From Clostridia bacterium (lineage in GTDB: Bacteria > Bacillota > Clostridia > UBA1212 > UBA1255): a DNA stretch of 64,000 bases. This document shows, one piece after another, positions 53,661 to 64,000 of this stretch. The position numbers and the translations under genes are program-made. Every line of letters starts with the position of its first letter. Position 1 is the first letter of the stretch. The DNA lies in contig JAGBGO010000035.1 of assembly GCA_017935905.1 (NCBI GenBank), forward strand, positions 36,064-100,063, read 5' to 3'. The notes below the pieces were generated by a model. That model did not search any database and was not told where the DNA came from. It saw only the letters and a list, made by a program, of their open reading frames with translations.

Positions 53661-53760
53661 CGCAGAAAATCAACGAAAATATACATTTGGAAGTCCAAAT
53701 TGTATACAAATCGCCATTTTACCGTGAAAATATACCGGAATTTATGCAATCGTTAAAGTA
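53643..53760. repeat. Dispersed intergenic repeat, copy B
   Basis: It aligns with 37783-37915 at about 75% identity. Confidence 0.6.
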
Positions 53761-54200
53761 TCCCCCCGGACGTAACAAGGATCGTCACCGCCATAGTACA
53801 CAGACGTACCCCAAATGGGTACAAATTTTACAGAAATTTCCCGCTCCACAATCAAGGTAAAAGAAACCTTTTCACGGAAATCATTCTCAGCGTTATCGTC
53901 CACACCAATTTGCAGCGTATAATAACATTGATTACCAACCTCAATTTTGCAGAAACCGGTAGAGGCGGAACCTTCCACATACGACAAATTAACCGCATAC
54001 TGTCCCGGCGCTAACGTCATCGTGTTGGAAGTATAGAGATCTTCCTCTCCCTGCAAGATCTGAATATCCAAAGTATAGTTGGCAGCAACAATCCGGTTAC
54101 TGCCGGAATCTACACCGGCGGTAAAATACCCAAAGGCTGCAAAACTCATCGATGTGAGCAAAAGCACAATAGATACAAAAGAAAAATATATTTTTCTCAT
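53742..54200 (-). CDS. Small secreted protein (152 aa), last gene of the SipW/TasA-like operon
   Basis: The signal peptide is MRKIYFSFVSIVLLLTSMSFAAFGYFTAG. Its start overlaps the upstream gene in an ATGA arrangement. Confidence 0.45.
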   Translation of the reverse strand: MRKIYFSFVSIVLLLTSMSFAAFGYFTAGVDSGSNRIVAANYTLDIQILQGEEDLYTSNTMTLAPGQYAVNLSYVEGSASTGFCKIEVGNQCYYTLQIGVDDNAENDFREKVSFTLIVEREISVKFVPIWGTSVYYGGDDPCYVRGDTLTIA

Positions 54201-54826
54201 GCGGCACCCCCTTGCTGGGTCGCGCGAACAATCAACCCTAAATCTACTTCCGGCACCACTTCGCCTCGGTAATTCGCTTGGTTATCGACCTCTTCCGGCA
54301 TCCGTACGATAAGCGCCACGTATGCAGTTTCCTCGGCACCCAAAGAAGCCTTCTCCGAAGCATATTGATTTAATTCCATATTGGCATAGGCGCAGGCTCG
54401 CTCTCTTGTTCCCACAAGGGCATCCAGCGCGCCTTCGTCTGTGTCAGTCACCAAACCGAATTTCAAATAGTCCTGCAGGATAAACGGCTCTCCCATCATA
54501 TTCTCTGCCACGGTATATCCCGTCACGTTAACAGCAGTATAAAAATCAAAAGGTACAGTTCCCTTGTTCTCCACTTTCAAATAAACCACTTGCACGTAAC
54601 CGGGCTCATACAAAGCGTTGTCATCAAACACCTTTGTATCTGCCTCAAGCTCTTTATACGACCCATCCGCCTGCCTATAAGACACCTTCAACTCAAAATC
54701 TGCAAAATGGAACACGTTCTGTAATTCCGGCGTAGCATCAGAGAACCATGCAATGGAGGTACCGGCACCCAAAATAATCCATAACAAAATCAAGCCTACA
54801 CTGAGGGTAAAAGCAATTTTCTTCAT
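54197..54826 (-). CDS. TasA/camelysin-like protein with a SipW-cognate class signal peptide
   Basis: MKKIAFTLSVGLILLWIILGAGTSIAWFSDA has a motif matching the SipW-cognate signal (..GT.A.FSD). An AAGGAGGG ribosome-binding site is present, and its start overlaps the previous stop in an ATGA arrangement. Confidence 0.55.
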   Translation of the reverse strand: MKKIAFTLSVGLILLWIILGAGTSIAWFSDATPELQNVFHFADFELKVSYRQADGSYKELEADTKVFDDNALYEPGYVQVVYLKVENKGTVPFDFYTAVNVTGYTVAENMMGEPFILQDYLKFGLVTDTDEGALDALVGTRERACAYANMELNQYASEKASLGAEETAYVALIVRMPEEVDNQANYRGEVVPEVDLGLIVRATQQGGAA

Positions 54827-55467
54827 GCTTTTTCCCTCCTTTTTCGCAAGATAAACAGCAAGATTAACAGGAAACCCGCCCCACCTAAGATCGCAAACCA
54901 CAAAGGCCGATTAAAAGTATCGCCCGTAGGCGGCACCGGGTCGTCATTTTCCACTGGAAACTCCTCTACCTTAAATTCCCAATCCAAATAGCCGGTCTGC
55001 CCGCTATATTCATTGCCAAGGGTCACCGGCACCTCCAAAAGAACTTCCAGATTGACCACGCCGCCGGAATACAAAGTACCCAAGCAAACCCAATCGGAAA
55101 GTTGCGCCGTTTCGGAAGCTGCGCTGTCAAACATATACGCCATGGTATTGTCCGAAGCGGCCCGCACTTTCAGTCCCAACTGAGACAAAAATCCTTCCGA
55201 GCCCGCCTGCGCACCCAAGGCGCGCAGATAGATCTTTACTTTAACCTTCTTAGAGGCTTCATTTCGAACTGTAATGTTTTGTGTCAATGTATCCCCGGGC
55301 ATAACGTCCTTAAATGCAGGAAACAAATCCGTAGGAGACTGACTGCTGCCGGGGGTAAAAATAAATTCACCTGAATCTCCGGCATACGTGACGGAACTCT
55401 CCTTTGCCATAGTCGGCAGGCTGAAACACAGCAGCAATATGAAAATGATACAAAAAATTCTTCTCAT
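54823..55467 (-). CDS. Secreted protein with a C-terminal LPXTG-like sorting signal (VPPTG, hydrophobic segment, RKRREKA)
   Basis: It has a standard signal peptide and a beta-rich domain. The C-terminal tripartite cell-wall sorting signal is VPPTGDTFNRPLWFAILGGAGFLLILLFILRKRREKA. Confidence 0.5.
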   Translation of the reverse strand: MRRIFCIIFILLLCFSLPTMAKESSVTYAGDSGEFIFTPGSSQSPTDLFPAFKDVMPGDTLTQNITVRNEASKKVKVKIYLRALGAQAGSEGFLSQLGLKVRAASDNTMAYMFDSAASETAQLSDWVCLGTLYSGGVVNLEVLLEVPVTLGNEYSGQTGYLDWEFKVEEFPVENDDPVPPTGDTFNRPLWFAILGGAGFLLILLFILRKRREKA

Positions 55468-55479
55468 CTTGCCACCTCC

Positions 55480-56046
55480 TTATTCCATCGGCCAACCGGA
55501 AGCCGTATAGGTCTTTCCGTCCGTAATAGGATTATGCTCACTCTGAACTGCGTGGGCAGAAACCGTCAAGGACAGCGTCTTACCAATGTAACGATTATCC
55601 ACTTTATCCCCTACGATTTCCACATGGGAGAAAACGCAAGGCGTTGTTTCGCCCGGTGTTAAAATGCTTTTATAATAGTACCAGCCTTCATGAAACTCCC
55701 AATGCTCTGCGTCAATATTCAATTTGAAACAATCCTCTGCAGAAAGTTCTTGGGCATTCACGCCGTACACCACTTTGACCCGCAGGTAAAATGGGTGGGT
55801 GCACGTGTTCTCAATAGTCACTTCTTTGCTCACCACGTCGCCGGGAACAATGTACACACCCTCACTGGGAAACGCCGTACCTTGCTCTGTGGTTTCGTGG
55901 ATAATAAATTGGATTTCGCCGGAGGTCACTACGTTCGTAGCCTTTCCCACGGTAGAATAAAATGCAAGTGTGCCTTGTGCAAAGAAGGTCATCAAAATGG
56001 CCACCATTGCAATGGCGACAATTTTCAACTTCATACTTCTCAACAC
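55480..56046 (-). CDS. TasA/camelysin-like protein with a SipW-cognate signal peptide
   Basis: The N-terminus is MKLKIVAIAMVAILMTFFAQGTLAFYS. The protein is 188 aa. Confidence 0.5.
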   Translation of the reverse strand: MLRSMKLKIVAIAMVAILMTFFAQGTLAFYSTVGKATNVVTSGEIQFIIHETTEQGTAFPSEGVYIVPGDVVSKEVTIENTCTHPFYLRVKVVYGVNAQELSAEDCFKLNIDAEHWEFHEGWYYYKSILTPGETTPCVFSHVEIVGDKVDNRYIGKTLSLTVSAHAVQSEHNPITDGKTYTASGWPME

Positions 56047-56231: not shown

Positions 56232-58430
56232 TTATTTTACAGTAGCATTTTGAACATTGGAAGTTACAAGCGTACCAATATTCTCAGCAGTAAGAAGAAC
56301 ACCGTTCAACCGGCAGTTCTCAAAGGTAACCGCCGCACGAGGATCCATTGCAAAGCCTTCGCTGAAATCGCAATCTACAAAGGTTGTGGGCGCATAGGGA
56401 CGGCAGAACGCATAACCTGCACCCTTACCAAAACTACAGCCTGTAAATTCAGCATCGCCAATAGTTGCAGCATAACTGGTCCAACCATTGATAACACAGT
56501 TTGTAGCCGTTAAACCATTACCGGTTCCTTGATCACAACTAATTGTGTAGGTAGGACCATCAATGGTTACATTTTCCAAATAAACTCTGCTACCTGTAGC
56601 GTTGTGATTTACAAACACACCACGGAAACCTTTTGCAATTGTCAGATTTTTTATCGTGCCACCAGTGATATTAATGGCAGAATCCCATGTACTGGTTGCA
56701 CCATTAACAATCAAGACCTTACCATTTCCATCCAAAGTTTCACCATTTTTGATATTGAGACCGGTAGCGCCATATCCATTACTCTCACTGTCAGTGGTTG
56801 TAATATCACAATCGAGGATGATAAGCTGTGCATCTCCTTCCAATGCTTCTCTAAGTGCATCAGCATCTTTTGCATAAGCAATCATCGTCTCAGCACTCTC
56901 TATATCGTAACACTCATACCCGTCATTATCGATGTAAGGCGCTTTGATTGTAGACAACCCAAAATTGGCGACATTATCCCTGACTAATGTGTTGCATTTA
57001 GAAAGCGCATAGAAATTTCTAAGAGCAATTACAGTCATATCTCCAGCAAAGGTATTCAGGAAACTATTTTCCAGAACAGAAATCTTTAATGCATAAGAAC
57101 AAGAAGCATTGTTATGGGGTGTAACGACTACATTACCATTCATAAACGTATTACCAATTACAGAAACGTGACCCTGGGTAGCACCTACATACACAGCAGT
57201 ATTTACAGTTGTATCTGCGGTTCCAAAACTGTTGTTGATAATCTTAAATTCGCCTTTAAGCTGATAACCGGGATAGTACATATAAATATAATATAAGGCA
57301 TCCGTTTCAAAGGTACACCCATCAATAACAGCACCTTTCATACCGCCACTTTTACGATTTCTTTCATAGAAAACAACAGGAATATATTTACTGGAATCTG
57401 CAGGCTTTCCGGTAAAGGTACAATTGATAATTTGCAGATTATCTGCACCGTTTGCGCTGTTCTCGGCACCAGTCACATTGGTGTAAAGATCAAGTGCATT
57501 ATTGACGCCACTTGTTTTAGTCATACCGTACGCCATCTGAGCACCTGCCGCATCAAAGGTAATGCCAATCAACTTGCAATTATTCTTTGCATTGGCATTA
57601 ACATAGTCAACAACAGCAGAATTAGTAACCAGTGTCAAATCGTTTTGAGTCAGTGTAAGTTTGCCATATTGTCCATCAGACAATCCAATTACCATACCTT
57701 CTGTAGCTGTAGCAAGAATATCGTCAATGGTTTCAGGTGTAGCAACTACATCACAAGGCAAAGCATCTGCATCGTAATCATTACCGAAGGCATCATTCTC
57801 ATTGACATATTGAGTAGCTACAAGATTAATTCCTAATCTGATGGTAGGAACAACAGTCCCGGTCTTGTAATTTGCCTCATTACCAACGGTTTCAGGCATA
57901 TAAACTACCATGGAAATATAATCCGTATCATTGGTAGACTCCAGGGTAGAGCCTTTGGAAAATCCTGCCGAAATTACGTTGGCGTCTGTAATAGCAGCTC
58001 GTGCCTCATCCCGACTTGCAAAAGCTGTTTCTGTTTCAACAACACCAAATTGAATATAGTTAGAAAGCTTAAATTTCTCTCCCGAAACATTTGTGCCCAA
58101 TGTTTCAGAAATAACATTAATGCCCAAATGATACTTAAACGCCAGGGTACCAGCGTTTACCACTTTCAGATACACAACTTCTGTATGACCGGGTTCCCAA
58201 AGAGCCTCCGCATCAAATACGTTGGTATTCTCATCCACAAGTTTCCAATCCTTTGCGTCCGTGCTCCAATACAATTCTGCATCCAAATTACCGGACTTAA
58301 TAATATTATTGTTCGATGATACACTGTCTGTAAACCATGCAAAAGTAGTACCAACCAACATAGATACGCACATAACGAGTGCCAATGCACTCATCAATAA
58401 AGCACGTTTTGTGCTTTTTGTTTTTGTCAT
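56232..58430 (-). CDS. Large (732 aa) fusion of an N-terminal TasA/camelysin-like domain with a C-terminal right-handed parallel beta-helix (pectate-lyase-like) region
   Basis: The SipW-cognate signal is ALVMCVSMLVGTTFAWFTDS. A ~220-aa TasA-like domain follows. Then come many beta-helix rungs (..NCTFTG.., ..IINNSFG.., ..VIGNTFMNGN.., ..LENSFLN.., ..TGGTIKNLTI.., ..ATNCVINGW..). An AGGAGG ribosome-binding site is present, and its start overlaps the upstream stop. Confidence 0.55.
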   Translation of the reverse strand: MTKTKSTKRALLMSALALVMCVSMLVGTTFAWFTDSVSSNNNIIKSGNLDAELYWSTDAKDWKLVDENTNVFDAEALWEPGHTEVVYLKVVNAGTLAFKYHLGINVISETLGTNVSGEKFKLSNYIQFGVVETETAFASRDEARAAITDANVISAGFSKGSTLESTNDTDYISMVVYMPETVGNEANYKTGTVVPTIRLGINLVATQYVNENDAFGNDYDADALPCDVVATPETIDDILATATEGMVIGLSDGQYGKLTLTQNDLTLVTNSAVVDYVNANAKNNCKLIGITFDAAGAQMAYGMTKTSGVNNALDLYTNVTGAENSANGADNLQIINCTFTGKPADSSKYIPVVFYERNRKSGGMKGAVIDGCTFETDALYYIYMYYPGYQLKGEFKIINNSFGTADTTVNTAVYVGATQGHVSVIGNTFMNGNVVVTPHNNASCSYALKISVLENSFLNTFAGDMTVIALRNFYALSKCNTLVRDNVANFGLSTIKAPYIDNDGYECYDIESAETMIAYAKDADALREALEGDAQLIILDCDITTTDSESNGYGATGLNIKNGETLDGNGKVLIVNGATSTWDSAINITGGTIKNLTIAKGFRGVFVNHNATGSRVYLENVTIDGPTYTISCDQGTGNGLTATNCVINGWTSYAATIGDAEFTGCSFGKGAGYAFCRPYAPTTFVDCDFSEGFAMDPRAAVTFENCRLNGVLLTAENIGTLVTSNVQNATVK

Positions 58431-58450
58431 TTTATTTTTCCTCCTAATCA

Positions 58451-59137
58451 TTAAGCCTCAATGGCCATTCCAACAGTCGCGAAAGCTTCATACGCATTAT
58501 CGCCAACGTGCTCAGTCTGTACCGCCTGAGCCTTTACGTCAATTGCAAAACTGCCGCTAAACGCAGCCGCTTGTTCTCGCGTTAGGGACTCGGGAACCTT
58601 CACAGCGTTGAAGAGTACCAGATCTTCTTCGCTTTCAAGAATATCCGTATAGTACAGTACGTAGGTAACAGTATCTGTTTCGCCATTGATATCTTTCGAG
58701 ATATGATCCCATTTCGTTTCATCAAAACCAACAAAGACCGTGTTCATATCAATATCCAAGCCAACTGCATTGATCCATGCGGTCGCATCAGAAATCTTCA
58801 CAATCACACGAATGTATTGATCGTAATGACCCGTATTGGTAACGTGTGCAATCTTACTGAGTTCGTCACCGGGAAGAATATTCTCATAAACAAGGGACGC
58901 ATCTGTTCTCTCAACATCCTCGACTTCATTAAAGTCACCGTCGCCGTTAGAATCTTTCTGCTCCCATACATCTACAGAGAAAATCTTATCCGGCGTATTG
59001 TCCTCAGAATCAGCAACGAAGAATTCGTTGTACACGCTGTCCTTGTGTGAGAACCATGCGAGTGATCCCATAGAGAGAATGGCGATTAAGCATACTGCCA
59101 AAGCTGTTACAAAAACCTTTTTCTTATTGAACTTCAT
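58451..59137 (-). CDS. TasA/camelysin (peptidase M73 / CalY)-like protein with a SipW-cognate signal peptide
   Basis: MKFNKKKVFVTALAVCLIAILSMGSLAWFSHK is followed by a TasA-like beta-domain. The protein is 228 aa. Confidence 0.6.
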   Translation of the reverse strand: MKFNKKKVFVTALAVCLIAILSMGSLAWFSHKDSVYNEFFVADSEDNTPDKIFSVDVWEQKDSNGDGDFNEVEDVERTDASLVYENILPGDELSKIAHVTNTGHYDQYIRVIVKISDATAWINAVGLDIDMNTVFVGFDETKWDHISKDINGETDTVTYVLYYTDILESEEDLVLFNAVKVPESLTREQAAAFSGSFAIDVKAQAVQTEHVGDNAYEAFATVGMAIEA

Positions 59138-59193: not shown

Positions 59194-59403
59194 TTACCGG
59201 TAAAATGGCAATAAAGATAACCACAATTCCCTTCTTTGCCAAATCCAGTACTGCCGTTCTTCCCCTTCCGTGCGGTCAATTTCCGAATTTACATACTGAA
59301 GCTCCCGGCAAAAATCTCTAATCCAAAGAACAAAGCCAACCAGCAAAAGAAAACCAAAACCGCCGCCAATGATGACTGCCAAAATTGCTACCATTTCATC
59401 CAT
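59194..59403 (-). CDS. Small single-transmembrane protein (69 aa)
   Basis: The sequence MDEMVAILAVIIGGGFGFLLLVGFVLWIR... has a ribosome-binding site 12 nt upstream. Its start overlaps the end of sipW. Confidence 0.3.
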   Translation of the reverse strand: MDEMVAILAVIIGGGFGFLLLVGFVLWIRDFCRELQYVNSEIDRTEGEERQYWIWQRRELWLSLLPFYR

Positions 59404-59935
59404 GCGTAGGCGGTACCTCCTTCTTCCGCTTGGCGATTAAATCCGGCAAGAAAACCACAAGAATCAGCGCCACACCGCCGGCCAGTACAAAATACATACC
59501 CGGTGGATTTTGAATAAACTCTGCCACGTATCCCAAATAGGGAATACTGAATTGAGGTACACCGATTACGTTGTTGTAATGCACCGGGGAAGAATCCACC
59601 GTATTGTTAGCGTCACCTTTGGTGTAGAACACTTGCTTCTCTGTATCGACTTCTACAACCCGATGCGTTGCCACCACTAAATTCTCATTTAAGATAAACG
59701 TAATGGGGTCACCCACTTGAATCGTGCTTTTGTCTTTCACGGTTTTTACGTAGATCAAATCGCCTGCGCTGTACGTAGGCTCCATACTGCCGGAAAGCAC
59801 GTTAAACACCCGGTACCCTAATATTCGGGAACCCATCAAGAACACGGCACATAACACCACCAGCACAACGATTACAGTAGACACACTATTCCAAATGCGC
59901 TTTGCACGCTTCTTCGTTCTCTCATTCATAGTCAT
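59396..59935 (-). CDS. sipW: Signal peptidase I, SipW (archaeal/eukaryal S26B) type
   Basis: It has an N-terminal transmembrane helix, the catalytic Ser block VLSGSMEPTYSAGDLIYV, the His/Asp region GDANN and a C-terminal transmembrane helix. Confidence 0.8.
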   Translation of the reverse strand: MTMNERTKKRAKRIWNSVSTVIVVLVVLCAVFLMGSRILGYRVFNVLSGSMEPTYSAGDLIYVKTVKDKSTIQVGDPITFILNENLVVATHRVVEVDTEKQVFYTKGDANNTVDSSPVHYNNVIGVPQFSIPYLGYVAEFIQNPPGMYFVLAGGVALILVVFLPDLIAKRKKEVPPTHG

Positions 59936-60617
59936 CCGTTCCTTCCCGGATTTCTTTCTCCGCAAGTTGCGCTTTCAAGGCTTCCAACTCTGCCAGCACA
60001 CGGGCACTTTCTTCCCGTTCTTCTGAAAGCTTTTGTCGCTCCGCTTCCATCTCCGCCATTTGCTCCTGTTTATATTTTCGGAACAATTGAATACAACGAA
60101 AGCCCTGATAGAGAATCAGCAACATAAAAGGCACAAAGATACAAAGCATATAGCCTTGGGTGGTTTTCATAAAGTTGAAGAATGTTCCCACATCAGGAAT
60201 GTGACCGGTGTACTTACCCAAAATATAAGGGTACGTAACAATAGTCGCATCATCGGTGTCTGTGGTAGTACCGTATGTAACAAATCCCGGATTCCCTTTG
60301 GCATCCGTGGTTTTGCGCCGAATTTTATGGGTAATGGTTTCTCCGAAACTTTCGCTGTCTTGTGAAATAAACGTAATAATGTCCCCTTCTTTCAGGGTGG
60401 ACGGGCTCACTTCTTTCACAAAAATCAAATCGCCGGCATCAAAATCCGTTTTGCTCATAGAGTCTGTCCGTACTACAAATGCTTTGTATCCAAACAAACT
60501 GCGATCATTTCGGTTGAAAGTGGTTACGGAAATAACGGTAAAAATCATCATACACACCGCAACTGCCACCACAATCCACACCAGTACTTTTCGAACAATC
60601 CCCAATATCTTTTTCAT
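59922..60617 (-). CDS. Second SipW-type signal peptidase I paralogue with a C-terminal coiled-coil extension
   Basis: The sequence is MKKILGIVRKVLVWIVVAVAV...VVRTDSMSKTDFDAGDLIFV...; it has a second transmembrane helix and an acidic coiled-coil tail (EQMAEMEAERQKLSEEREESARVLAELEALKAQLAEKE). Confidence 0.7.
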   Translation of the reverse strand: MKKILGIVRKVLVWIVVAVAVCMMIFTVISVTTFNRNDRSLFGYKAFVVRTDSMSKTDFDAGDLIFVKEVSPSTLKEGDIITFISQDSESFGETITHKIRRKTTDAKGNPGFVTYGTTTDTDDATIVTYPYILGKYTGHIPDVGTFFNFMKTTQGYMLCIFVPFMLLILYQGFRCIQLFRKYKQEQMAEMEAERQKLSEEREESARVLAELEALKAQLAEKEIREGTDDYE

Positions 60618-60630
60618 GCAAAATTCCCCT

Positions 60631-60789
60631 CTATTTATCGTTCTTTTGCGCCAAACTTTCTGATAACTTTTCAAAAAACGCTTCGGTTTCTTCTTTGGAC
60701 GTCTGCTGGTCGCTCTCACAGTTCGGACAAATCATTCGCCCCTCCGGAACCGGGACTCCGCAACAGACACAAATATCTACATCGTTCAT
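60631..60789 (-). CDS. 52-aa Cys4 zinc-ribbon protein, first gene of the operon
   Basis: The sequence is MNDVDICVCCGVPVPEGRMICPNCESDQQTSKEETEAFFEKLSESLAQKNDK. An AGGAAG ribosome-binding site is present. It lies 13 nt upstream of the second sipW start. Confidence 0.45.
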   Translation of the reverse strand: MNDVDICVCCGVPVPEGRMICPNCESDQQTSKEETEAFFEKLSESLAQKNDK

Positions 60790-60817: not shown

Positions 60818-61091
60818 CACATAATGATTATTATGTTGTATGAGAGGTAACTTGTTTCTGAAGCAATAACGTTTTTATGCGTTCCGACAAAATATAAAGG
60901 TATAGAAAAATAACCTTTCCTTAGAAATTCAAAGGCAAGGTTTCACTCATATTACGTAATTGTTGTATTTTTTGTAAACTAATTATAGAATTAGTTGATT
61001 TCTTCAAAAAGGTATGCTATTATACGGCACACGAATGGCATATTCGTGTGTCTTCGTATGTATATACTTACAACATAATAATCATTATGTG
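60818..61091. promoter_or_regulatory. Putative invertible (phase-variable) promoter segment bracketed by perfect 23-bp inverted repeats
   Basis: The left inverted repeat CACATAATGATTATTATGTTGTA is at 60818-60840. The right copy at 61069-61091 is its exact reverse complement. The 228-bp AT-rich core contains sigma-A-like promoters in both orientations. On the minus strand TTTACA-18-TAATAT lies at 60949-60978. On the plus strand TTGATT-17-TATTAT lies at about 60996-61024. A hairpin is at 61028-61050. The tyrosine recombinase gene abuts the right inverted repeat. Confidence 0.55.
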
Positions 61092-61096
61092 TTCTT

Positions 61097-61918
61097 TTAC
61101 AGCAACAATCTCAAATTTTCCATTCTTTTTTGATGTTCATATCCGGTTGTCATAATATAAATTCTGGTCGTATTGATATTGGAGTGCCCCAGTATATCCG
61201 CAAGCTTTGCAATATCTTTTTCAATACCGTAAAATGTCCGGGCAAATAAGTGCCTTAAATTATGAGGAAAAACTTTCTCCGGAGCTACGCCGGCCTGCTT
61301 ACACAGATGTTTCATTTCTCGCCAAATATTGCTACGGCTGATGGGTTTACCGTTACGGGTGGTAAAAATCATACCGGTCTGAATACCCTGTCTGGCAATA
61401 TATTGCTTCAATTTGTCCCTTAATTCCCGCACAAGAAAGATTTTTCGTATCTTACCCTTGCAGGAAACCATTGCCTCTCCCTTCTTCACTGCTTCTACCG
61501 TGATGGCGGAAAGCTCACTGACGCGAATGCCGGTGGCACAAATGGTTTGCACAATCAGGGATAAGCGCCTGTTCTGCTGTCGTTCCGCCGCGCGAACCAA
61601 TCGGAAATATTCCTCTTTCGTCAGTTCTTTTTGGGCAGGACAATAGGCTTCTTGCTGGATTTTGTACTGTTTCACGCATAAATGATGCCTGCCGGCGAAA
61701 CGCAAATAACTGTTTAGGGATGCAATCATAGAGTTTGCACTGCGTACAGCGTACTGCTCGCCCAAATGTTTTTTGTAGTTAAGAATGTCTTGTTTGACGG
61801 GAACTTTATCCCCCATATATTGCATAAAGTATCGGATGTCTCTTAGATATTTTTCAATCGTTGCAGGACTTTTTTCATCCTCTTGCAAAAATTGTTTAAA
61901 TTGTTCGATCGTTGTCAT
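61097..61918 (-). CDS. Tyrosine site-specific recombinase (XerC/D-integrase family), candidate invertase for the adjacent switch
   Basis: The catalytic signature is R (TGIRVSEL) ... HNLRHLFA ... LGHSNINTTRIY. The protein is about 274 aa. An AAAGGAG ribosome-binding site is present. Confidence 0.8.
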   Translation of the reverse strand: MTTIEQFKQFLQEDEKSPATIEKYLRDIRYFMQYMGDKVPVKQDILNYKKHLGEQYAVRSANSMIASLNSYLRFAGRHHLCVKQYKIQQEAYCPAQKELTKEEYFRLVRAAERQQNRRLSLIVQTICATGIRVSELSAITVEAVKKGEAMVSCKGKIRKIFLVRELRDKLKQYIARQGIQTGMIFTTRNGKPISRSNIWREMKHLCKQAGVAPEKVFPHNLRHLFARTFYGIEKDIAKLADILGHSNINTTRIYIMTTGYEHQKRMENLRLLL

Positions 61919-61984
61919 GCCAATCAACTCCTTTATTAATTGATACTTTTATTATTATAGGTTTGAAAAATAATTTCAATACAA

Positions 61985-62054: not shown

Positions 62055-64000
62055 ATGAGAAATTACAACATTAAAGCTGCGCTGTTCGATTTGGATGGCG
62101 TGATCGTGTTTACCGACAAATATCACTATTTGGCATGGAAGCAATTGTCCGACGAGCAGGGCTGGGATTTCAATGAAACTGTCAACAACCGCCTGCGGGG
62201 CATTCCCAGATTGGCTTCCTTAGAAGAGATTTTGAAGCACAACAACATTGATCTTCCTTTGGAGGAGAAGATTGTGCTGATGAACCGGAAGAATGATTAT
62301 TACGTAAAGCTTTTAGAGCAGATCAATCCCGGGGACGTTTATCCGGGTTCTGTGGAGTTTATTAAGAAACTGCGGGAAAGAGGCATTCTGATTTCCCTTT
62401 GTTCTTCCAGCAAGAACGCGCCCTTGGTGTTGGAGAAGTTAGGTCTTACAGAATTGTTTGACGCCGTTGTGACCGGTCACGATATTAAGAACGCAAAGCC
62501 GGATCCGGAGATTTTCTTACTTGGCGCAAAACGTCTGAATATGCCCGTATTCCACTGCGTTGTTTTTGAAGATGCCAAAGCCGGCATTGAAGGTGCCCGG
62601 GCGGCCCGCATGAAGACCGTAGGTGTGGGAAACAAAGAAGAAACAGAGAAGATTGCGGATACGTTCATTATGAACTACGACGAAATCGACGTGGAAACGT
62701 TCTTGGAGTCGGGACGGAAACAGCCTTTGCCGGTACATGAAACCAAGATTATTGAAACCGAGTTTAATCCTTACGATACAGGCCATATTGAAAGTGTTTT
62801 TGCATTGGGTAACGGATACATCGGTCTTCGGGGTACCTACGATGAAACGGACGAGGGCAGCAAGAGTTTGCCGGGGATGTATTTGAACGGCATTTTCTGT
62901 ACCAGAGAACTGAATCACCTTTTCCCCTTTCCGCTCCACTCCACCCACGACCAGTACACCATCAACTTGTCCGATTGGCGTATTTTCAATTTGTTTATTG
63001 ATGGAGAAAAGGCTTGCTTCTCCAAGGAGAATATCAAAGAACACCGCCGTGAATTGGATATGGTAAGAGGCGTCATTGAGAGATCTTTTGTATTTGAGAC
63101 TTCCACCGGCAAGAAAGCACAGGTACAGAGCCTTCGCATGGTAAATATGGACGAGGTACACGGTGCACAAGTTCAGTACAGTGTAACGCCCTTAAACTTT
63201 GACGGAGAAATCGTCATCAAGTCCGAAGTGGTGAAACTCACCGGCACTTGGGATTTGTGGCCTTGCGTGCTGGCTTCCGAACAGGATACGGACGGCATTT
63301 ACAGTTTCATTCAAGAAGTGACCACGACCAAACAGCGCGTCGCCTGCGCCGTTGCCCACACGGTGGGCGGTGCATCTAACGTTCGCGGGGAAAATAGTGA
63401 AAACTGTTACACCACCGTAATCACTGCAGATGCAAAGCGAGGCGTACCCGTAACGGTTTCTAAATACGTTGCTTTTAGTTGCACCATGGACAAGAGCGAA
63501 GATATGGAAGGGGATGCCCGCCGTTTGGCTGCTGCCAATCGGGATGCCGGCATGGAAGTGCTGGCGGCTCGCCAGGCTGCTTTCTGGAAGAAACACTGGG
63601 AGAACGGCGATATCATCGTAGAAGGCAACCCCGCCGACCAACAAGCCATCCGTTATAGCTTATTCCAGCTTCGTCAGCAATTAGCAACCATTAACCAAAG
63701 CCCCATCGGTGCTACAGGTCTTACAGGTCTGAATTACAGCGGCAAGGCATTCTGGGATACGGAAATGTACTTGATGCCTTATTACAATTTTACCCAGCCG
63801 GAGACGCAGAAAGAGTTGATTTTGTACCGTTACAAGACGCTCCCCAGAGCTCGCCAGCGTGCAAAAGAGTACGGTCTGTGCGGCGCCATGTATCCTTGGT
63901 GCGGTATTGACGGTGAAGAAACTTCCGTTGTATTCGAGGCTTCCACCGCAGAATACCACTTACACAGCGATATTGCTTACTCCATCTGGCGTTACTACGA
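62055..64000 (+). CDS. Fusion of beta-phosphoglucomutase (HAD) with a GH65 disaccharide phosphorylase (maltose/kojibiose/trehalose phosphorylase type). Partial; it continues past the window end.
   Basis: The N-terminal ~215 aa are HAD beta-PGM (AALFDLDGVIVFTDKYH...KNAKPDPEIF...FEDAKAGIEGARAA). They continue without a stop into the GH65 N-terminal domain (FNPYDTGHIESVFALGNGYIGLRG) and the catalytic domain (GLNYSGKAFWDTEMYLMPYY; EYHLHSDIAYSIWRYY). Confidence 0.8.
   Translation, partial: MRNYNIKAALFDLDGVIVFTDKYHYLAWKQLSDEQGWDFNETVNNRLRGIPRLASLEEILKHNNIDLPLEEKIVLMNRKNDYYVKLLEQINPGDVYPGSVEFIKKLRERGILISLCSSSKNAPLVLEKLGLTELFDAVVTGHDIKNAKPDPEIFLLGAKRLNMPVFHCVVFEDAKAGIEGARAARMKTVGVGNKEETEKIADTFIMNYDEIDVETFLESGRKQPLPVHETKIIETEFNPYDTGHIESVFALGNGYIGLRGTYDETDEGSKSLPGMYLNGIFCTRELNHLFPFPLHSTHDQYTINLSDWRIFNLFIDGEKACFSKENIKEHRRELDMVRGVIERSFVFETSTGKKAQVQSLRMVNMDEVHGAQVQYSVTPLNFDGEIVIKSEVVKLTGTWDLWPCVLASEQDTDGIYSFIQEVTTTKQRVACAVAHTVGGASNVRGENSENCYTTVITADAKRGVPVTVSKYVAFSCTMDKSEDMEGDARRLAAANRDAGMEVLAARQAAFWKKHWENGDIIVEGNPADQQAIRYSLFQLRQQLATINQSPIGATGLTGLNYSGKAFWDTEMYLMPYYNFTQPETQKELILYRYKTLPRARQRAKEYGLCGAMYPWCGIDGEETSVVFEASTAEYHLHSDIAYSIWRYY

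What the first reader, a model, noticed from the sequence alone, without database searches (positions are those of the whole stretch)
60818..61918. Candidate phase-variable invertible promoter (23-bp perfect inverted repeats plus adjacent tyrosine recombinase) controlling a SipW/TasA-like fibre operon
A perfect 23-bp inverted repeat (CACATAATGATTATTATGTTGTA at 60818-60840; exact reverse complement at 61069-61091) brackets a 228-bp AT-rich segment. This segment is the only intergenic region between a tyrosine recombinase gene (61097-61918, whose 3' end abuts the right inverted repeat) and a co-oriented 11-gene secretion/fibre operon. The segment carries sigma-A-like -35/-10 pairs in both orientations. 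On the minus strand TTTACA-18-TAATAT points into the operon; on the plus strand TTGATT-17-TATTAT points away. It also carries a stem-loop (61028-61050) whose effect would depend on orientation. This is the canonical architecture of fim-type / Clostridioides cwpV-type DNA-inversion switches. Here it would impose ON/OFF heterogeneity on a TasA-like matrix or fibre locus, which I am not aware of being described.
Basis: partly seen in the sequence, partly recalled or inferred. Interest (0 to 1): 0.85.

Follow-up and report, generated by a model that had tools for sequence, protein, structure and literature searches.

The report
Invertible promoter switch for fibre operon
A 228-bp promoter segment flanked by perfect 23-bp inverted repeats, next to its own recombinase gene, is very likely a flip-flop DNA switch that turns a TasA-like surface-fibre operon on and off in an uncultured gut Clostridia bacterium; the mechanism is well known, but this cargo has not been reported under such a switch.

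Summary
There is a perfect 23-bp inverted repeat (60818-60840 / 61069-61091) around a 228-bp AT-rich core. A tyrosine recombinase gene ends 5 nt from one arm, and a co-oriented SipW/TasA-like operon starts 28 nt from the other.

- **Recombination site.** Each arm is a recombinase core site, ACATAAT-N4-ATTATGT(TGTA). In 12 related loci the arms are conserved. The central 4 nt take 8 different values but always match between the two partner sites.
- **Evidence of inversion.** Three k=31 Logan contigs from close relatives end exactly where a de Bruijn graph of a mixed ON/OFF population must break. One of them carries 4 nt of the inverted junction. In a more distant pair (L032/L034), the cores are homologous in opposite orientation between collinear flanks.
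- **Promoter and state.** The conserved promoter is TTGATT-17-TGcTATTAT on the + strand, pointing away from the operon. The window and all 10 read-through assemblies of its clade are therefore in the OFF state.
- **Cargo in relatives.** Related switches control capsule and DNA-methyltransferase genes.

Verdict: a real inverton, a new member of a known kind with a new cargo. Inversion in this exact strain has not been shown.

The parts
61097..61918 (-). Tyrosine recombinase (273 aa), the putative invertase
   Evidence: PF00589 2e-27 and PF02899. Best NCBIfam matches are XerA/XerD-like, all below their cut-offs. Catalytic-motif residues R132, H219-x-x-R222, H245 and Y254 are invariant among 12 homologues. 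Closest solved structures are XerC-like 4a8e, XerD and XerA.
61951..61979 (-). Promoter-like site upstream of the recombinase gene (TTGAAA-17-AATAAT)
   Evidence: Consensus scan, 10 of 12 positions. Not tested further.
61069..61091 (.). Recombinase-proximal inverted repeat. Contains the core site ACATAAT-AATC-ATTATGT (61073-61090)
60818..60840 (.). Operon-proximal inverted repeat. Contains the core site ACATAAT-GATT-ATTATGT (60819-60836)
60841..61068 (.). Invertible core, 228 bp, 30.7% GC
   Evidence: Homologous cores in relatives are 150-252 bp between the 18-mer sites.
60995..61023 (+). Switch promoter TTGATT-17-TGcTATTAT (extended -10). In the window it points towards the recombinase 3' end, which is the OFF orientation
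   Evidence: The -35, the 17-nt spacing and the -10 are conserved in L029, L041/L042, L026 and L010 while the spacer sequence varies.
61026..61052 (+). Stem-loop that would form the 5' end of the operon mRNA after inversion
   Evidence: -21.6 kcal/mol, z = -3.9. Relatives appear to carry hairpins at the same place with other sequences (by eye), but RNAalifold found no common register.
60912..60942 (-). Terminator-like hairpin followed by AUUUUUCUAU on the minus strand. In the OFF orientation it would block read-through from the recombinase gene and from TTTACA-18-TAATAT
   Evidence: moderate: z = -1.1 on the minus strand, -2.0 on the plus strand. Analogous hairpin plus T-run in L029, L041, L003 and L016, read from the sequences. 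This is an inference.
60631..60789 (-). First operon gene: 52-aa Cys-rich zinc-ribbon protein
   Evidence: Weak Zn_Ribbon_1 match. A counterpart is the first gene after the switch in L010 (62 aa) and in L003/L016 (64 aa, Cys_rich_KTR).
59922..60617 (-). SipW-type signal peptidase 1 (231 aa)
   Evidence: TIGR02228 67.3 bits (cut-off 51.85). SipW equivalog 79.8 bits, below its cut-off of 190.
59396..59929 (-). SipW-type signal peptidase 2 (177 aa)
   Evidence: TIGR02228 104.4 bits; PF10502.
59194..59403 (-). 69-aa predicted membrane protein
   Evidence: No family match. Conserved in L008, L010, L029 and L041.
58451..59137 (-). TasA/BsaA-like secreted protein (228 aa)
   Evidence: Weak TIGR04090 match; N-terminal '...LAWFS' signal.
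56232..58451 (-). 739-aa secreted protein with a SipW-type signal peptide and a camelysin-like N-terminal region
   Evidence: TIGR04088 25.1 bits (cut-off 19). PF12389 21.5 bits (cut-off 22.5).
55480..56046 (-). BsaA/TasA-like protein (188 aa)
   Evidence: TIGR04090 1.5e-7; PF12389 2.2e-4. Both below their cut-offs.
54823..55467 (-). 214-aa secreted protein with a C-terminal LPXTG-like anchor (VPPTG plus a hydrophobic tail)
   Evidence: Weak TIGR01167 / NF053819 matches; sequence.
54197..54826 (-). About 209-aa paralogue of the N-terminal part of the 739-aa protein, with SipW-type signal '...IAWFSD'
   Evidence: BLASTP 34% identity over 208 aa, 8e-35.
53742..54200 (-). 152-aa secreted protein ('...AAFGYFTAG'), the last gene of the tight cluster
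   Evidence: No family match; sequence.

Best explanation
This is a site-specific DNA-inversion switch (an inverton).

**Proposed mechanism**
- The adjacent tyrosine recombinase binds the two core sites ACATAAT-N4-ATTATGT inside the 23-bp repeats.
- It exchanges strands in the matching central region (T-GATT-A) and flips the 228-bp core.
- The core carries one sigma-A promoter, TTGATT-17-TGcTATTAT.

**OFF state (as sequenced)**
- The promoter fires towards the 3' end of the recombinase gene.
- A terminator-like hairpin in the core faces the recombinase gene and would stop read-through.
- The SipW/TasA-like operon, which has no promoter of its own in the 28 nt between repeat and start codon, is silent.

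**ON state (after inversion)**
- The promoter sits 45 nt from the operon-proximal repeat.
- It transcribes a hairpin-capped leader, the zinc-ribbon gene, two SipW peptidases and the TasA/BsaA-like fibre proteins.
- Only part of the population would therefore make the fibres.

**Shown versus inferred**
- Shown: the anatomy, its conservation, co-variation of the sites, and graph and junction evidence of mixed orientation in close relatives.
- Inferred: catalysis by this recombinase, promoter activity, terminator function and fibre assembly.
For: 1. **The repeat is not chance.** The IR is perfect and unique in the window.
2. **Site co-variation.** In 12 loci with recombinases 56-100% identical, the arms ACATAAT / ATTATGT(TGTA) are conserved. 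The central 4 nt take 8 values (GATT, GGTT, ATTC, AATC, CGAT, CCAC, CGGC, CCGA) and are always identical in the two partner sites. Tyrosine recombinases need identical crossover regions, so this is the expected pattern.
3. **Conserved module.** The module recombinase - IR - 150-250 bp core - IR - Zn-ribbon gene - SipW - TasA-like genes recurs in four lineages. These are the window clade, the P0003 group, the P0086 group and Acutalibacteraceae MAG L003, whose cores are otherwise unalignable.
4. **Other cargo is typical of phase variation.** The same sites and recombinase family precede capsule genes (CpsB/Wzz/CpsD, L004) and an Eco57I/MmeI-like methyltransferase (L032).
5. **Contig ends mark a mixed population.** Logan contigs are k=31 de Bruijn contigs (PMC12424806).
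   - L024 and L025 end exactly on the last base of the IR.
   - L015 ends 4 nt beyond a 24-bp IR. Those 4 nt (AAGC) are the inverted-core junction, and its last 30 nt match the distal junction of L041 30/30 on the opposite strand.
   - Simulation: pure ON or pure OFF gives an unbroken unitig. A mixture ends exactly at the IR. An ON majority with residual OFF reproduces the L015 tail base for base.
6. **Inversion between related loci.** The L032 core is homologous to the reverse complement of the L034 core (score 69 against 20 forward; best of 60 shuffles 29). The recombinase and the first ~140 nt of the cargo gene are collinear, and the promoters point opposite ways.
7. **Promoter conservation.** The promoter hexamers and their 17-nt spacing are conserved across the clade.
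Against: - All 10 assemblies of the window clade that read through the switch have the same (OFF) orientation: the window, L001, L002, L008, L009, L026/27+L030, L028, L029, L041 and L042. The same holds for 5/5 P0003 and 8/8 P0086 contigs. No full-length ON contig was found in the clade.
- The ON junction rests on 4 nt plus an exact contig end.
- The mixed-orientation signals come from relatives whose recombinases fall in the two 90%-identity clusters at 84-92% identity to the window's, not from the window's own sample.
- Promoter and terminator are predictions. The terminator-like hairpin is only moderately stable.
Confidence: 0.85

Rival explanations
1. The region is a fixed, non-inverting regulatory region. 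The palindromic repeats are operators for a DNA-binding protein, possibly the recombinase-like protein acting only as a regulator. The + strand promoter makes an antisense RNA against the recombinase gene.
For: Every read-through assembly within a species has one orientation. In the window clade and the P0003 group the promoter consistently points at the recombinase gene.
Against: - Operators need not keep their central 4 nt identical between two sites while those bases drift between lineages.
- The recombinase keeps all its catalytic residues.
- Logan contigs break exactly at the IR, and one carries the inverted junction.
- L032 and L034 have cores in opposite orientation.
- In L003, L016 and L032 the equivalent promoter points at the cargo.
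- In the present orientation the operon would have no usable promoter.
Confidence: 0.06
2. The IR-bounded 274-bp unit is a small mobile element (MITE-like), or it is the attachment or Xer-type (dif-like) site set of a mobile module. The recombinase would serve integration or excision rather than inversion.
For: - The recombinase is most similar to XerA/XerC/XerD.
- The site resembles a dif-type arm-spacer-arm site.
- The P0086-group module occurs in two upstream contexts, one beside TnpV.
- Ten relatives were retrieved from the viral-contig collection, several at contig ends.
Against: - There is only one pair of sites in 64 kb.
- The two sites are always inverted, which gives inversion rather than excision.
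- The unit always lies between the recombinase stop codon and a cargo operon.
- The cores diverge freely while the repeats stay fixed, the opposite of a spreading MITE.
- All Xer NCBIfam models score far below their cut-offs.
- Across the window clade the locus sits in the same chromosomal context, with the GH65/HAD gene upstream.
Confidence: 0.05
3. The contig breaks at the IR reflect co-existing strains that share the recombinase gene and IR but have different cores. They would not reflect inversion. The IR would then be conserved for another reason.
For: Cores differ strongly between strains whose recombinases are about 90% identical.
Against: - Strains with such different cores also differ by several percent in the recombinase and upstream genes. 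Yet the contigs run unbroken for 1.7-7.4 kb up to the last IR base.
- The 4 nt beyond the IR in L015, and its exact end point, equal the prediction for the inverted core of its own clade.
Confidence: 0.04

Closest known systems
E. coli fimS switch with FimB/FimE tyrosine recombinases
   Same: - A short promoter-bearing segment (314 bp in fimS) lies between inverted repeats.
- The tyrosine recombinase gene is directly upstream, co-oriented and reads into the switch.
- The cargo is a surface-fibre operon.
- Orientation-dependent effects on the recombinase transcript are possible, as in fimE orientational control (from general knowledge).
   Different: - The repeats are 23 bp with a palindromic 7-4-7 core site, against 9 bp in fimS.
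- There is one recombinase gene, not two.
- The host is a Gram-positive-type Clostridia bacterium.
- The fibres are SipW-processed TasA/BsaA-like proteins, not chaperone-usher fimbriae.
- FimB/FimE-type invertase models match only weakly: NF007370 scores 32.6 bits against a cut-off of 221.
Clostridioides difficile invertible switches (cwpV/Cdi1, flgB/Cdi4, cmrRST/Cdi6; RecV; Cdi7 with an adjacent recombinase), PMC5903667
   Same: - The host belongs to the class Clostridia.
- A tyrosine recombinase is involved.
- Short intergenic or 5'-UTR segments lie between roughly 20-bp repeats.
- Surface and behavioural phenotypes are controlled in an ON/OFF manner.
   Different: - RecV acts in trans on several unrelated repeats. 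Here the recombinase is encoded next to its single cognate switch, as proposed for Cdi7.
- The site motifs ACATAAT and ATTATGT do not occur in that paper's text.
- cwpV is regulated by a terminator formed in the leader, whereas here the promoter itself is carried by the core.
- Sequence relatedness to RecV was not tested.
Clostridia 'inverton group 139' linked to tyrosine 'invertase group 35' (hCom2 community study, PMC11892184)
   Same: - 32 of its 33 invertons come from Clostridia.
- A tyrosine recombinase gene lies next to nearly every one.
- Repeats are 14-26 bp around interiors of about 206-228 bp. The Intestinimonas butyriciproducens example has a 228-bp interior.
- Read-level inversion was shown and depended on surface attachment.
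   Different: The motif sequence, the recombinase sequences and the cargo are not given in the text held here. Identity with the family described here could therefore not be tested. That paper does not mention SipW or TasA.
Xer/dif site-specific recombination (XerC/XerD, XerA, XerH)
   Same: These are the closest sequence and structure relatives of the recombinase. The site is two inverted arms around a short central region.
   Different: - Xer resolves directly repeated dif sites on chromosome dimers. Here the two sites are inverted, about 250 bp apart and bracket a promoter.
- All Xer models score below their cut-offs (151 against 220; 120 against 330).
- The variable centre is 4 nt inside a probable 6-nt overlap.
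Bacillus subtilis tapA-sipW-tasA and Clostridium perfringens sipW-bsaA matrix-fibre operons
   Same: SipW-type signal peptidase genes are clustered with TasA/BsaA-like proteins that carry the SipW-dependent signal peptide.
   Different: - From general knowledge, those operons are controlled by transcription factors (SinR/Spo0A; temperature or AbrB-type control), not by DNA inversion.
- Here the matches to the TasA/camelysin and BsaA models are below their cut-offs.
- There are two SipW paralogues and five or more substrates, including a 739-aa protein.

Membership tests
Tyrosine recombinase superfamily (PF00589) | Catalytic domain match above the curated threshold | tested here: met
   PF00589 96.5 bits against a cut-off of 27.1. 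PF02899 33.9 bits against 22.3.
Tyrosine recombinase superfamily (PF00589) | Catalytic residues R...K...H-x-x-R...H/W...Y | tested here: met
   R132 (TGIRVSEL), K154/K156, H219-N-L-R222, H245 and Y254 (TTRIY) are invariant in 12 homologues. Assignment to catalytic roles is by motif context, not by structural alignment.
Promoter inversion switch (inverton, fim type) | Inverted repeats bracket a short intergenic segment upstream of the regulated operon | tested here: met
Promoter inversion switch (inverton, fim type) | A promoter lies inside the invertible segment | tested here: met
   TTGATT-17-TGcTATTAT, with hexamers and spacing conserved in 5 diverged relatives. This is computational only; no transcription start data.
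Promoter inversion switch (inverton, fim type) | A cognate site-specific recombinase with matching partner sites | tested here: met
   The recombinase is adjacent. The partner sites have identical central regions in all 12 loci, across 8 different spacers.
Promoter inversion switch (inverton, fim type) | Both orientations coexist in a population | tested here: inconclusive
   - For: three Logan contigs of close relatives end as a mixed-orientation k=31 graph predicts. One carries 4 nt of the ON junction.
- For: L032 and L034 have opposite core orientations.
- Against: no reads could be examined, and every read-through contig of the clade is OFF.
Promoter inversion switch (inverton, fim type) | ON/OFF expression of the downstream genes follows orientation | not testable with these tools
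   Needs RNA-seq, 5'-RACE or reporter fusions on locked-ON and locked-OFF constructs.
SipW / TasA-type fibre system | SipW-type (archaeal/ER-type) signal peptidase I | tested here: met
   TIGR02228 scores 67.3 and 104.4 bits against a cut-off of 51.85. The Bacillus SipW equivalog NF046067 is below its cut-off (79.8 and 112.4 against 190).
SipW / TasA-type fibre system | Substrates with the SipW-dependent signal peptide | tested here: met
   TIGR04088 scores 25.1 bits against 19 for the 739-aa protein. Four further proteins share the A-W/Y-F-S/T motif.
SipW / TasA-type fibre system | TasA/camelysin (PF12389) or BsaA (TIGR04090) fold membership of the substrates | tested here: inconclusive
   PF12389 scores 21.5 and 21.6 bits against a cut-off of 22.5. 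TIGR04090 scores 31.4 bits against 60. No structure was predicted.
Xer chromosome-dimer resolvases (XerC/XerD/XerA/XerS) | Score above the equivalog cut-offs | tested here: not met
   XerA 151.5 against 220; XerD 120.5 against 329.6; XerC 116 against 335; XerS 61.8 against 267.
FimB/FimE-type DNA invertases (NF007370/NF007371) | Score above the subfamily cut-off | tested here: not met
   32.6 against 221 and 27.6 against 222. It works like these invertases but is not a member of that subfamily.
hCom2 inverton group 139 / invertase group 35 | Shared IR motif and recombinase cluster | not testable with these tools
   The motif and sequences are not in the text held.

The most novel reading that the evidence does not exclude
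The window may hold one member of a very large, so far unnamed family of Clostridia invertases (more than 8000 homologues at E<=1e-40). The family has a defined 7-4-7 core site whose central 4 nt act as a private 'address' that pairs each recombinase's two sites.

Its ancestral and most frequent cargo would be SipW/TasA-like fibre operons. Phase-variable amyloid-like matrix fibres would then be a common, unrecognised trait of gut and rumen Oscillospirales.

In addition, the OFF-state promoter firing antisense into the recombinase gene would self-lock the OFF state. That would explain why nearly all assemblies are OFF.
Probability: 0.3. Interest if true: 0.6.

Novelty: new member of a known kind. 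Interest (0 to 1): 0.45.

Why it matters
TasA/BsaA-type fibres are the protein scaffold of Firmicute biofilms. So far they are known to be controlled by transcription factors. A DNA-inversion switch would mean that gut Clostridia hedge their bets on making these fibres cell by cell. That bears on adhesion, aggregation, phage and immune exposure, and on how metagenomes are read, because the orientation gives the expression state.

The defined core site ACATAAT-N4-ATTATGT, with its co-varying centre, gives a simple search key. It can be used to find and score such switches in Clostridia genomes and reads, where invertons are much less charted than in Bacteroides. It also makes the recombinase's site specificity directly testable.

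Tried and rejected
- **Full ON contig in the window clade.** Only OFF read-through contigs were found, plus the three broken Logan contigs.
- **IR scans of the public collections.** The genome scan gave 1 locus (L003, informative). The metagenome scan gave 4 loci: L004 and L007 are informative, while L005 and L006 are single chance hits inside genes.
- **Homologue search with the 52-aa protein.** It gave only 2 proteins.
The -35 is conserved but the -10 is not. It is followed at once by the terminator-like hairpin, so it was rejected as the operon promoter.
- **Third site at 62292-62305.** Its arms do not match (GAAGAAT / ATTACGT), so it was rejected as chance.
- **Consensus fold of the leader hairpins.** RNAalifold found no common register, so no covariation claim is made.
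- **Raw blastn across L032/L034.** With lenient scoring it ran through the core in the forward sense. It was replaced by core-only local alignments with shuffles.
- **L022.** Its end near the distal IR lies 3 nt off the predicted branch point (by hand, from the sequences), so it was not used as evidence.
- **Literature.** No paper links invertible promoters with SipW, and the TasA search gave only irrelevant hits. The C. difficile repeats are unrelated.
Full report
**1. Observation**

CACATAATGATTATTATGTTGTA lies at 60818-60840 and its perfect reverse complement at 61069-61091, with 228 nt between them. Allowing 3 mismatches, these are the only two copies in the window, and none appeared in 100 shuffles. 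The core has 30.7% GC against 46.6% for the window.

On the minus strand a 273-aa tyrosine recombinase (61097-61918) stops 5 nt from the right arm. It matches PF00589 at 2e-27 and PF02899. The left arm lies 28 nt upstream of a 52-aa zinc-ribbon gene, which opens a tight run of co-oriented genes:
- two SipW-type signal peptidases (TIGR02228 at 67 and 104 bits, cut-off 52);
- a 69-aa membrane protein;
- five secreted proteins with the SipW-dependent 'A-W/Y-F-S/T-D' signal. One passes TIGR04088. Two match camelysin/TasA and BsaA models just below their cut-offs;
- one protein with an LPXTG-like anchor.

A GH2 glycosidase follows after a 140-nt gap.

**2. The repeats are recombinase core sites**

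Each arm is itself a near-palindrome, ACATAAT-GATT-ATTATGT, extended on the inner side by TGTA. I collected related loci in three ways:
- exact-protein look-ups;
- scans for the repeat in the genome and metagenome collections;
- a protein-guided scan of viral contigs.

In 12 loci whose recombinases are 56-100% identical to the window's, the same arms flank a 150-252 bp non-coding core directly after the recombinase stop codon. The central four bases differ between lineages: GATT, GGTT, ATTC, AATC, CGAT, CCAC, CGGC and CCGA. In every locus they are identical, in inverted orientation, in the two partner sites.

Tyrosine recombinases need identical crossover regions in the two partners. This is established knowledge of the family, for example Cre/loxP spacers and Xer/dif. 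Concerted change of both sites is therefore what selection for recombination predicts. An operator or a decaying transposon end would not show it.

The catalytic-motif residues R132, H219-x-x-R222, H245 and Y254 are invariant in 12 homologues.

**3. The module and its cargo**

The module recombinase - IR - core - IR - small zinc-ribbon gene - SipW - TasA-like genes recurs in four lineages:
- the window clade, always beside a GH65/HAD gene;
- the P0003 group (72% identity);
- the P0086 group (68% identity, with a TetR gene);
- an Acutalibacteraceae MAG (L003).

Their cores cannot be aligned between lineages. Selection therefore acts on the repeats and the layout, not on the core sequence as a whole.

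Other members of the recombinase family carry the same sites in front of capsule genes (CpsB/Wzz/CpsD, L004), an Eco57I/MmeI-like DNA methyltransferase (L032), a secreted protein (L037) and proteins of unknown function. This is the classic list of phase-variable functions.

The family is very large: all 8000 candidates scored had E <= 1e-40, mostly from Clostridia MAGs.

**4. Does it invert?**

*Read-through contigs.* Within each species, every assembly that reads through the switch has the same orientation. This holds for 10 of 10 in the window clade, 5 of 5 in the P0003 group and 8 of 8 in the P0086 group. Assemblies report the majority state, so this shows a strong bias. It does not show absence of switching.

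*First line of evidence: contig ends.* Logan contigs are built on a k=31 de Bruijn graph in which every 31-mer is unique (PMC12424806). A 23-bp repeat is shorter than k-1, so it cannot break such a graph in a uniform population. Yet three of the seven Logan contigs retrieved stop at the switch:
- L024 (SRR22213144) and L025 (SRR24653746) end on the very last base of the repeat.
- L015 (SRR31277392) ends 4 nt beyond a 24-bp repeat.

I simulated the graph:
- Pure OFF or pure ON sequences give an unbroken unitig.
- An ON+OFF mixture ends the recombinase-side unitig exactly on the last repeat base, as in L024 and L025.
- An ON majority with a residual OFF junction gives a unitig whose tail is identical, base for base, to L015.

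The last 4 nt of L015 (AAGC) are not what follows the repeat in its OFF relatives L041 and L042 (GAAT). They are the first bases of the inverted core. The last 30 nt of L015 match the distal junction of L041 30/30 on the opposite strand.

Co-existing strains with different cores could also branch at this point. Such strains, however, differ throughout the recombinase gene, and these contigs run unbroken for 1.7-7.4 kb up to the repeat.

*Second line of evidence: opposite cores in related loci.* L032 and L034 have collinear recombinase genes. The first 45 codons of their cargo genes are also collinear (91% identical). Their cores share a 62-nt block only in reverse-complement orientation: score 69, against 20 forward and at most 29 in 60 shuffles. 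Their promoters point in opposite directions.

**5. Which state is the window in, and how does it work?**

*Promoter.* An alignment of the clade's switches shows one conserved promoter. It has TTGAYT, a 17-nt spacer of variable sequence, and TAnnAT preceded in most members by TGn. In the window this is TTGATT (60995-61000) and TGcTATTAT (61015-61023) on the + strand. It points at the recombinase gene and away from the operon.

In L003, L016 and L032 the equivalent promoter lies at the same distance from the cargo-proximal repeat and points into the cargo. I therefore read the window, and its whole clade as assembled, as OFF.

It would start transcription right at a hairpin (60942-60912) that is followed by AUUUUUCUAU on that strand. 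The same hairpin would stop read-through from the recombinase gene. Similar hairpin-plus-T-run elements are present in L029, L041, L003 and L016. This termination role is an inference.

*After inversion.* The promoter would lie 45 nt from the operon-proximal repeat. The transcript would begin with the strong stem-loop at 61026-61052 (z = -3.9). It would then cross the repeat and reach the ribosome-binding site of the zinc-ribbon gene.

*A possible self-lock.* In the OFF state the promoter fires antisense into the recombinase gene. This could damp recombinase expression and stabilise OFF, which would fit the OFF bias. It would be a counterpart of fimE orientational control. This is speculation.

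**6. Comparison with known systems**

Mechanistically this is a fim-type invertible promoter. Among Clostridia the closest described cases are the C. difficile switches (PMC5903667), especially Cdi7, which has an adjacent recombinase. Their repeats are unrelated.

A 2025 survey of a defined gut community reports 'inverton group 139' (PMC11892184). It comprises 33 invertons, 32 of them from Clostridia, and nearly all lie beside a tyrosine recombinase of 'invertase group 35'. Repeats are 14-26 bp and interiors about 206-228 bp. Read-verified flipping responded to surface attachment. This may well be the same family, but the motif is not given in the text, so I could not test it.

By sequence the recombinase is nearest to XerA/XerC/XerD. 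It fails every Xer and FimB/FimE model cut-off. It therefore works like an invertase without belonging to those named subfamilies.

No paper in the library combines 'invertible promoter' with SipW. The search combining phase variation, TasA, inverted repeats and recombinase gave only irrelevant hits.

**7. Verdict**

The feature is real, and the inversion-switch interpretation is well supported (confidence 0.85). It is a new member of a known kind.

What is new is the cargo, a SipW/TasA-like fibre operon, which recurs in several lineages. The explicit site grammar (7-4-7 with a co-varying centre) for a very large Clostridia recombinase family is also new.

It is not surprising in principle. 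Invertons in front of surface structures are common, and Clostridia examples have been catalogued. Interest is moderate, at 0.45.

Still open:
- direct read-level proof in this strain;
- promoter and terminator activity;
- whether the proteins form fibres.

Noticed in passing
window 60631-60789 (-); L010 4066-4254; L003 3924-4118: The first gene after the switch in every SipW-type locus is a tiny Cys-rich zinc-ribbon protein of 52-64 aa. In L003/L016 it matches PF14205 Cys_rich_KTR. Its role in the fibre operon is unknown; it might be a regulator.
   Followed up: partly
L016/L017 versus L019/L021, breakpoint near L016 position 2068: The identical P0086 recombinase, with its switch and operon, sits behind two different upstream contexts: DUF553/HTH/YpsA or TnpV. 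The sequences diverge about 100 nt upstream of the recombinase start. The whole module may therefore be carried on a mobile element or exchanged between strains.
   Followed up: no
window 61053-61068 and the equivalent positions in L029, L041, L026, L028 and L010 (alignment A3): A motif TATGTAT (reverse complement ATACATA, resembling the site arm ACATAAT) is conserved inside the core next to the repeat, on the promoter side only. It could be an accessory recombinase half-site that gives the switch a directional bias.
   Followed up: no
L041 3600-3760; L042 1250-1410: In the 84%-identity sister clade the leader between the switch and the zinc-ribbon gene is about 160 nt, against 28 nt in the window. 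It contains a promoter-like ATGACT-17-TGtTATAAT outside the switch, so that clade may have basal expression that does not depend on orientation.
   Followed up: no
L026 end (1239) and L027 end (1038): Two contigs from different samples and assemblers, carrying the same recombinase protein, both end 152 nt after the recombinase stop, in the middle of the core. L030, from the same sample as L027, resumes further on in the core. The cause is unexplained; it may be a mid-core hairpin or a polymorphism.
   Followed up: partly
L034 3049-3190; L035 equivalent: The cargo gene behind this OFF-oriented switch is only a 45-codon remnant of the Eco57I/MmeI-like methyltransferase that is intact in L032. 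The switch has outlived its cargo.
   Followed up: partly
window 62292-62305: AATGATTATTACGT, inside the GH65/HAD gene, resembles the centre of the site. Its arms (GAAGAAT / ATTACGT) do not match, and it was judged a chance match.
   Followed up: yes
L010-L014 (P0003 group), sites at L010 3851-3868 and 4019-4036: In this lineage both arms of each site are extended to about 10 nt (CAACATAAT-N4-ATTATGTTG), making each site a longer perfect palindrome. The core is only 150 bp. In L004, L007 and L010 the central 4 nt have the opposite polarity relative to the core compared with the window.
   Followed up: partly
L031, L036, L038, L039 (IMG/VR contigs): Several recombinase homologues in the viral-contig collection lie at the very end of the contig: 0-3 nt beyond the end of the recombinase match in L036, L038 and L039, and 104 nt in L031. 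This may reflect prophage-boundary trimming, or assembly breaks at the switch.
   Followed up: no
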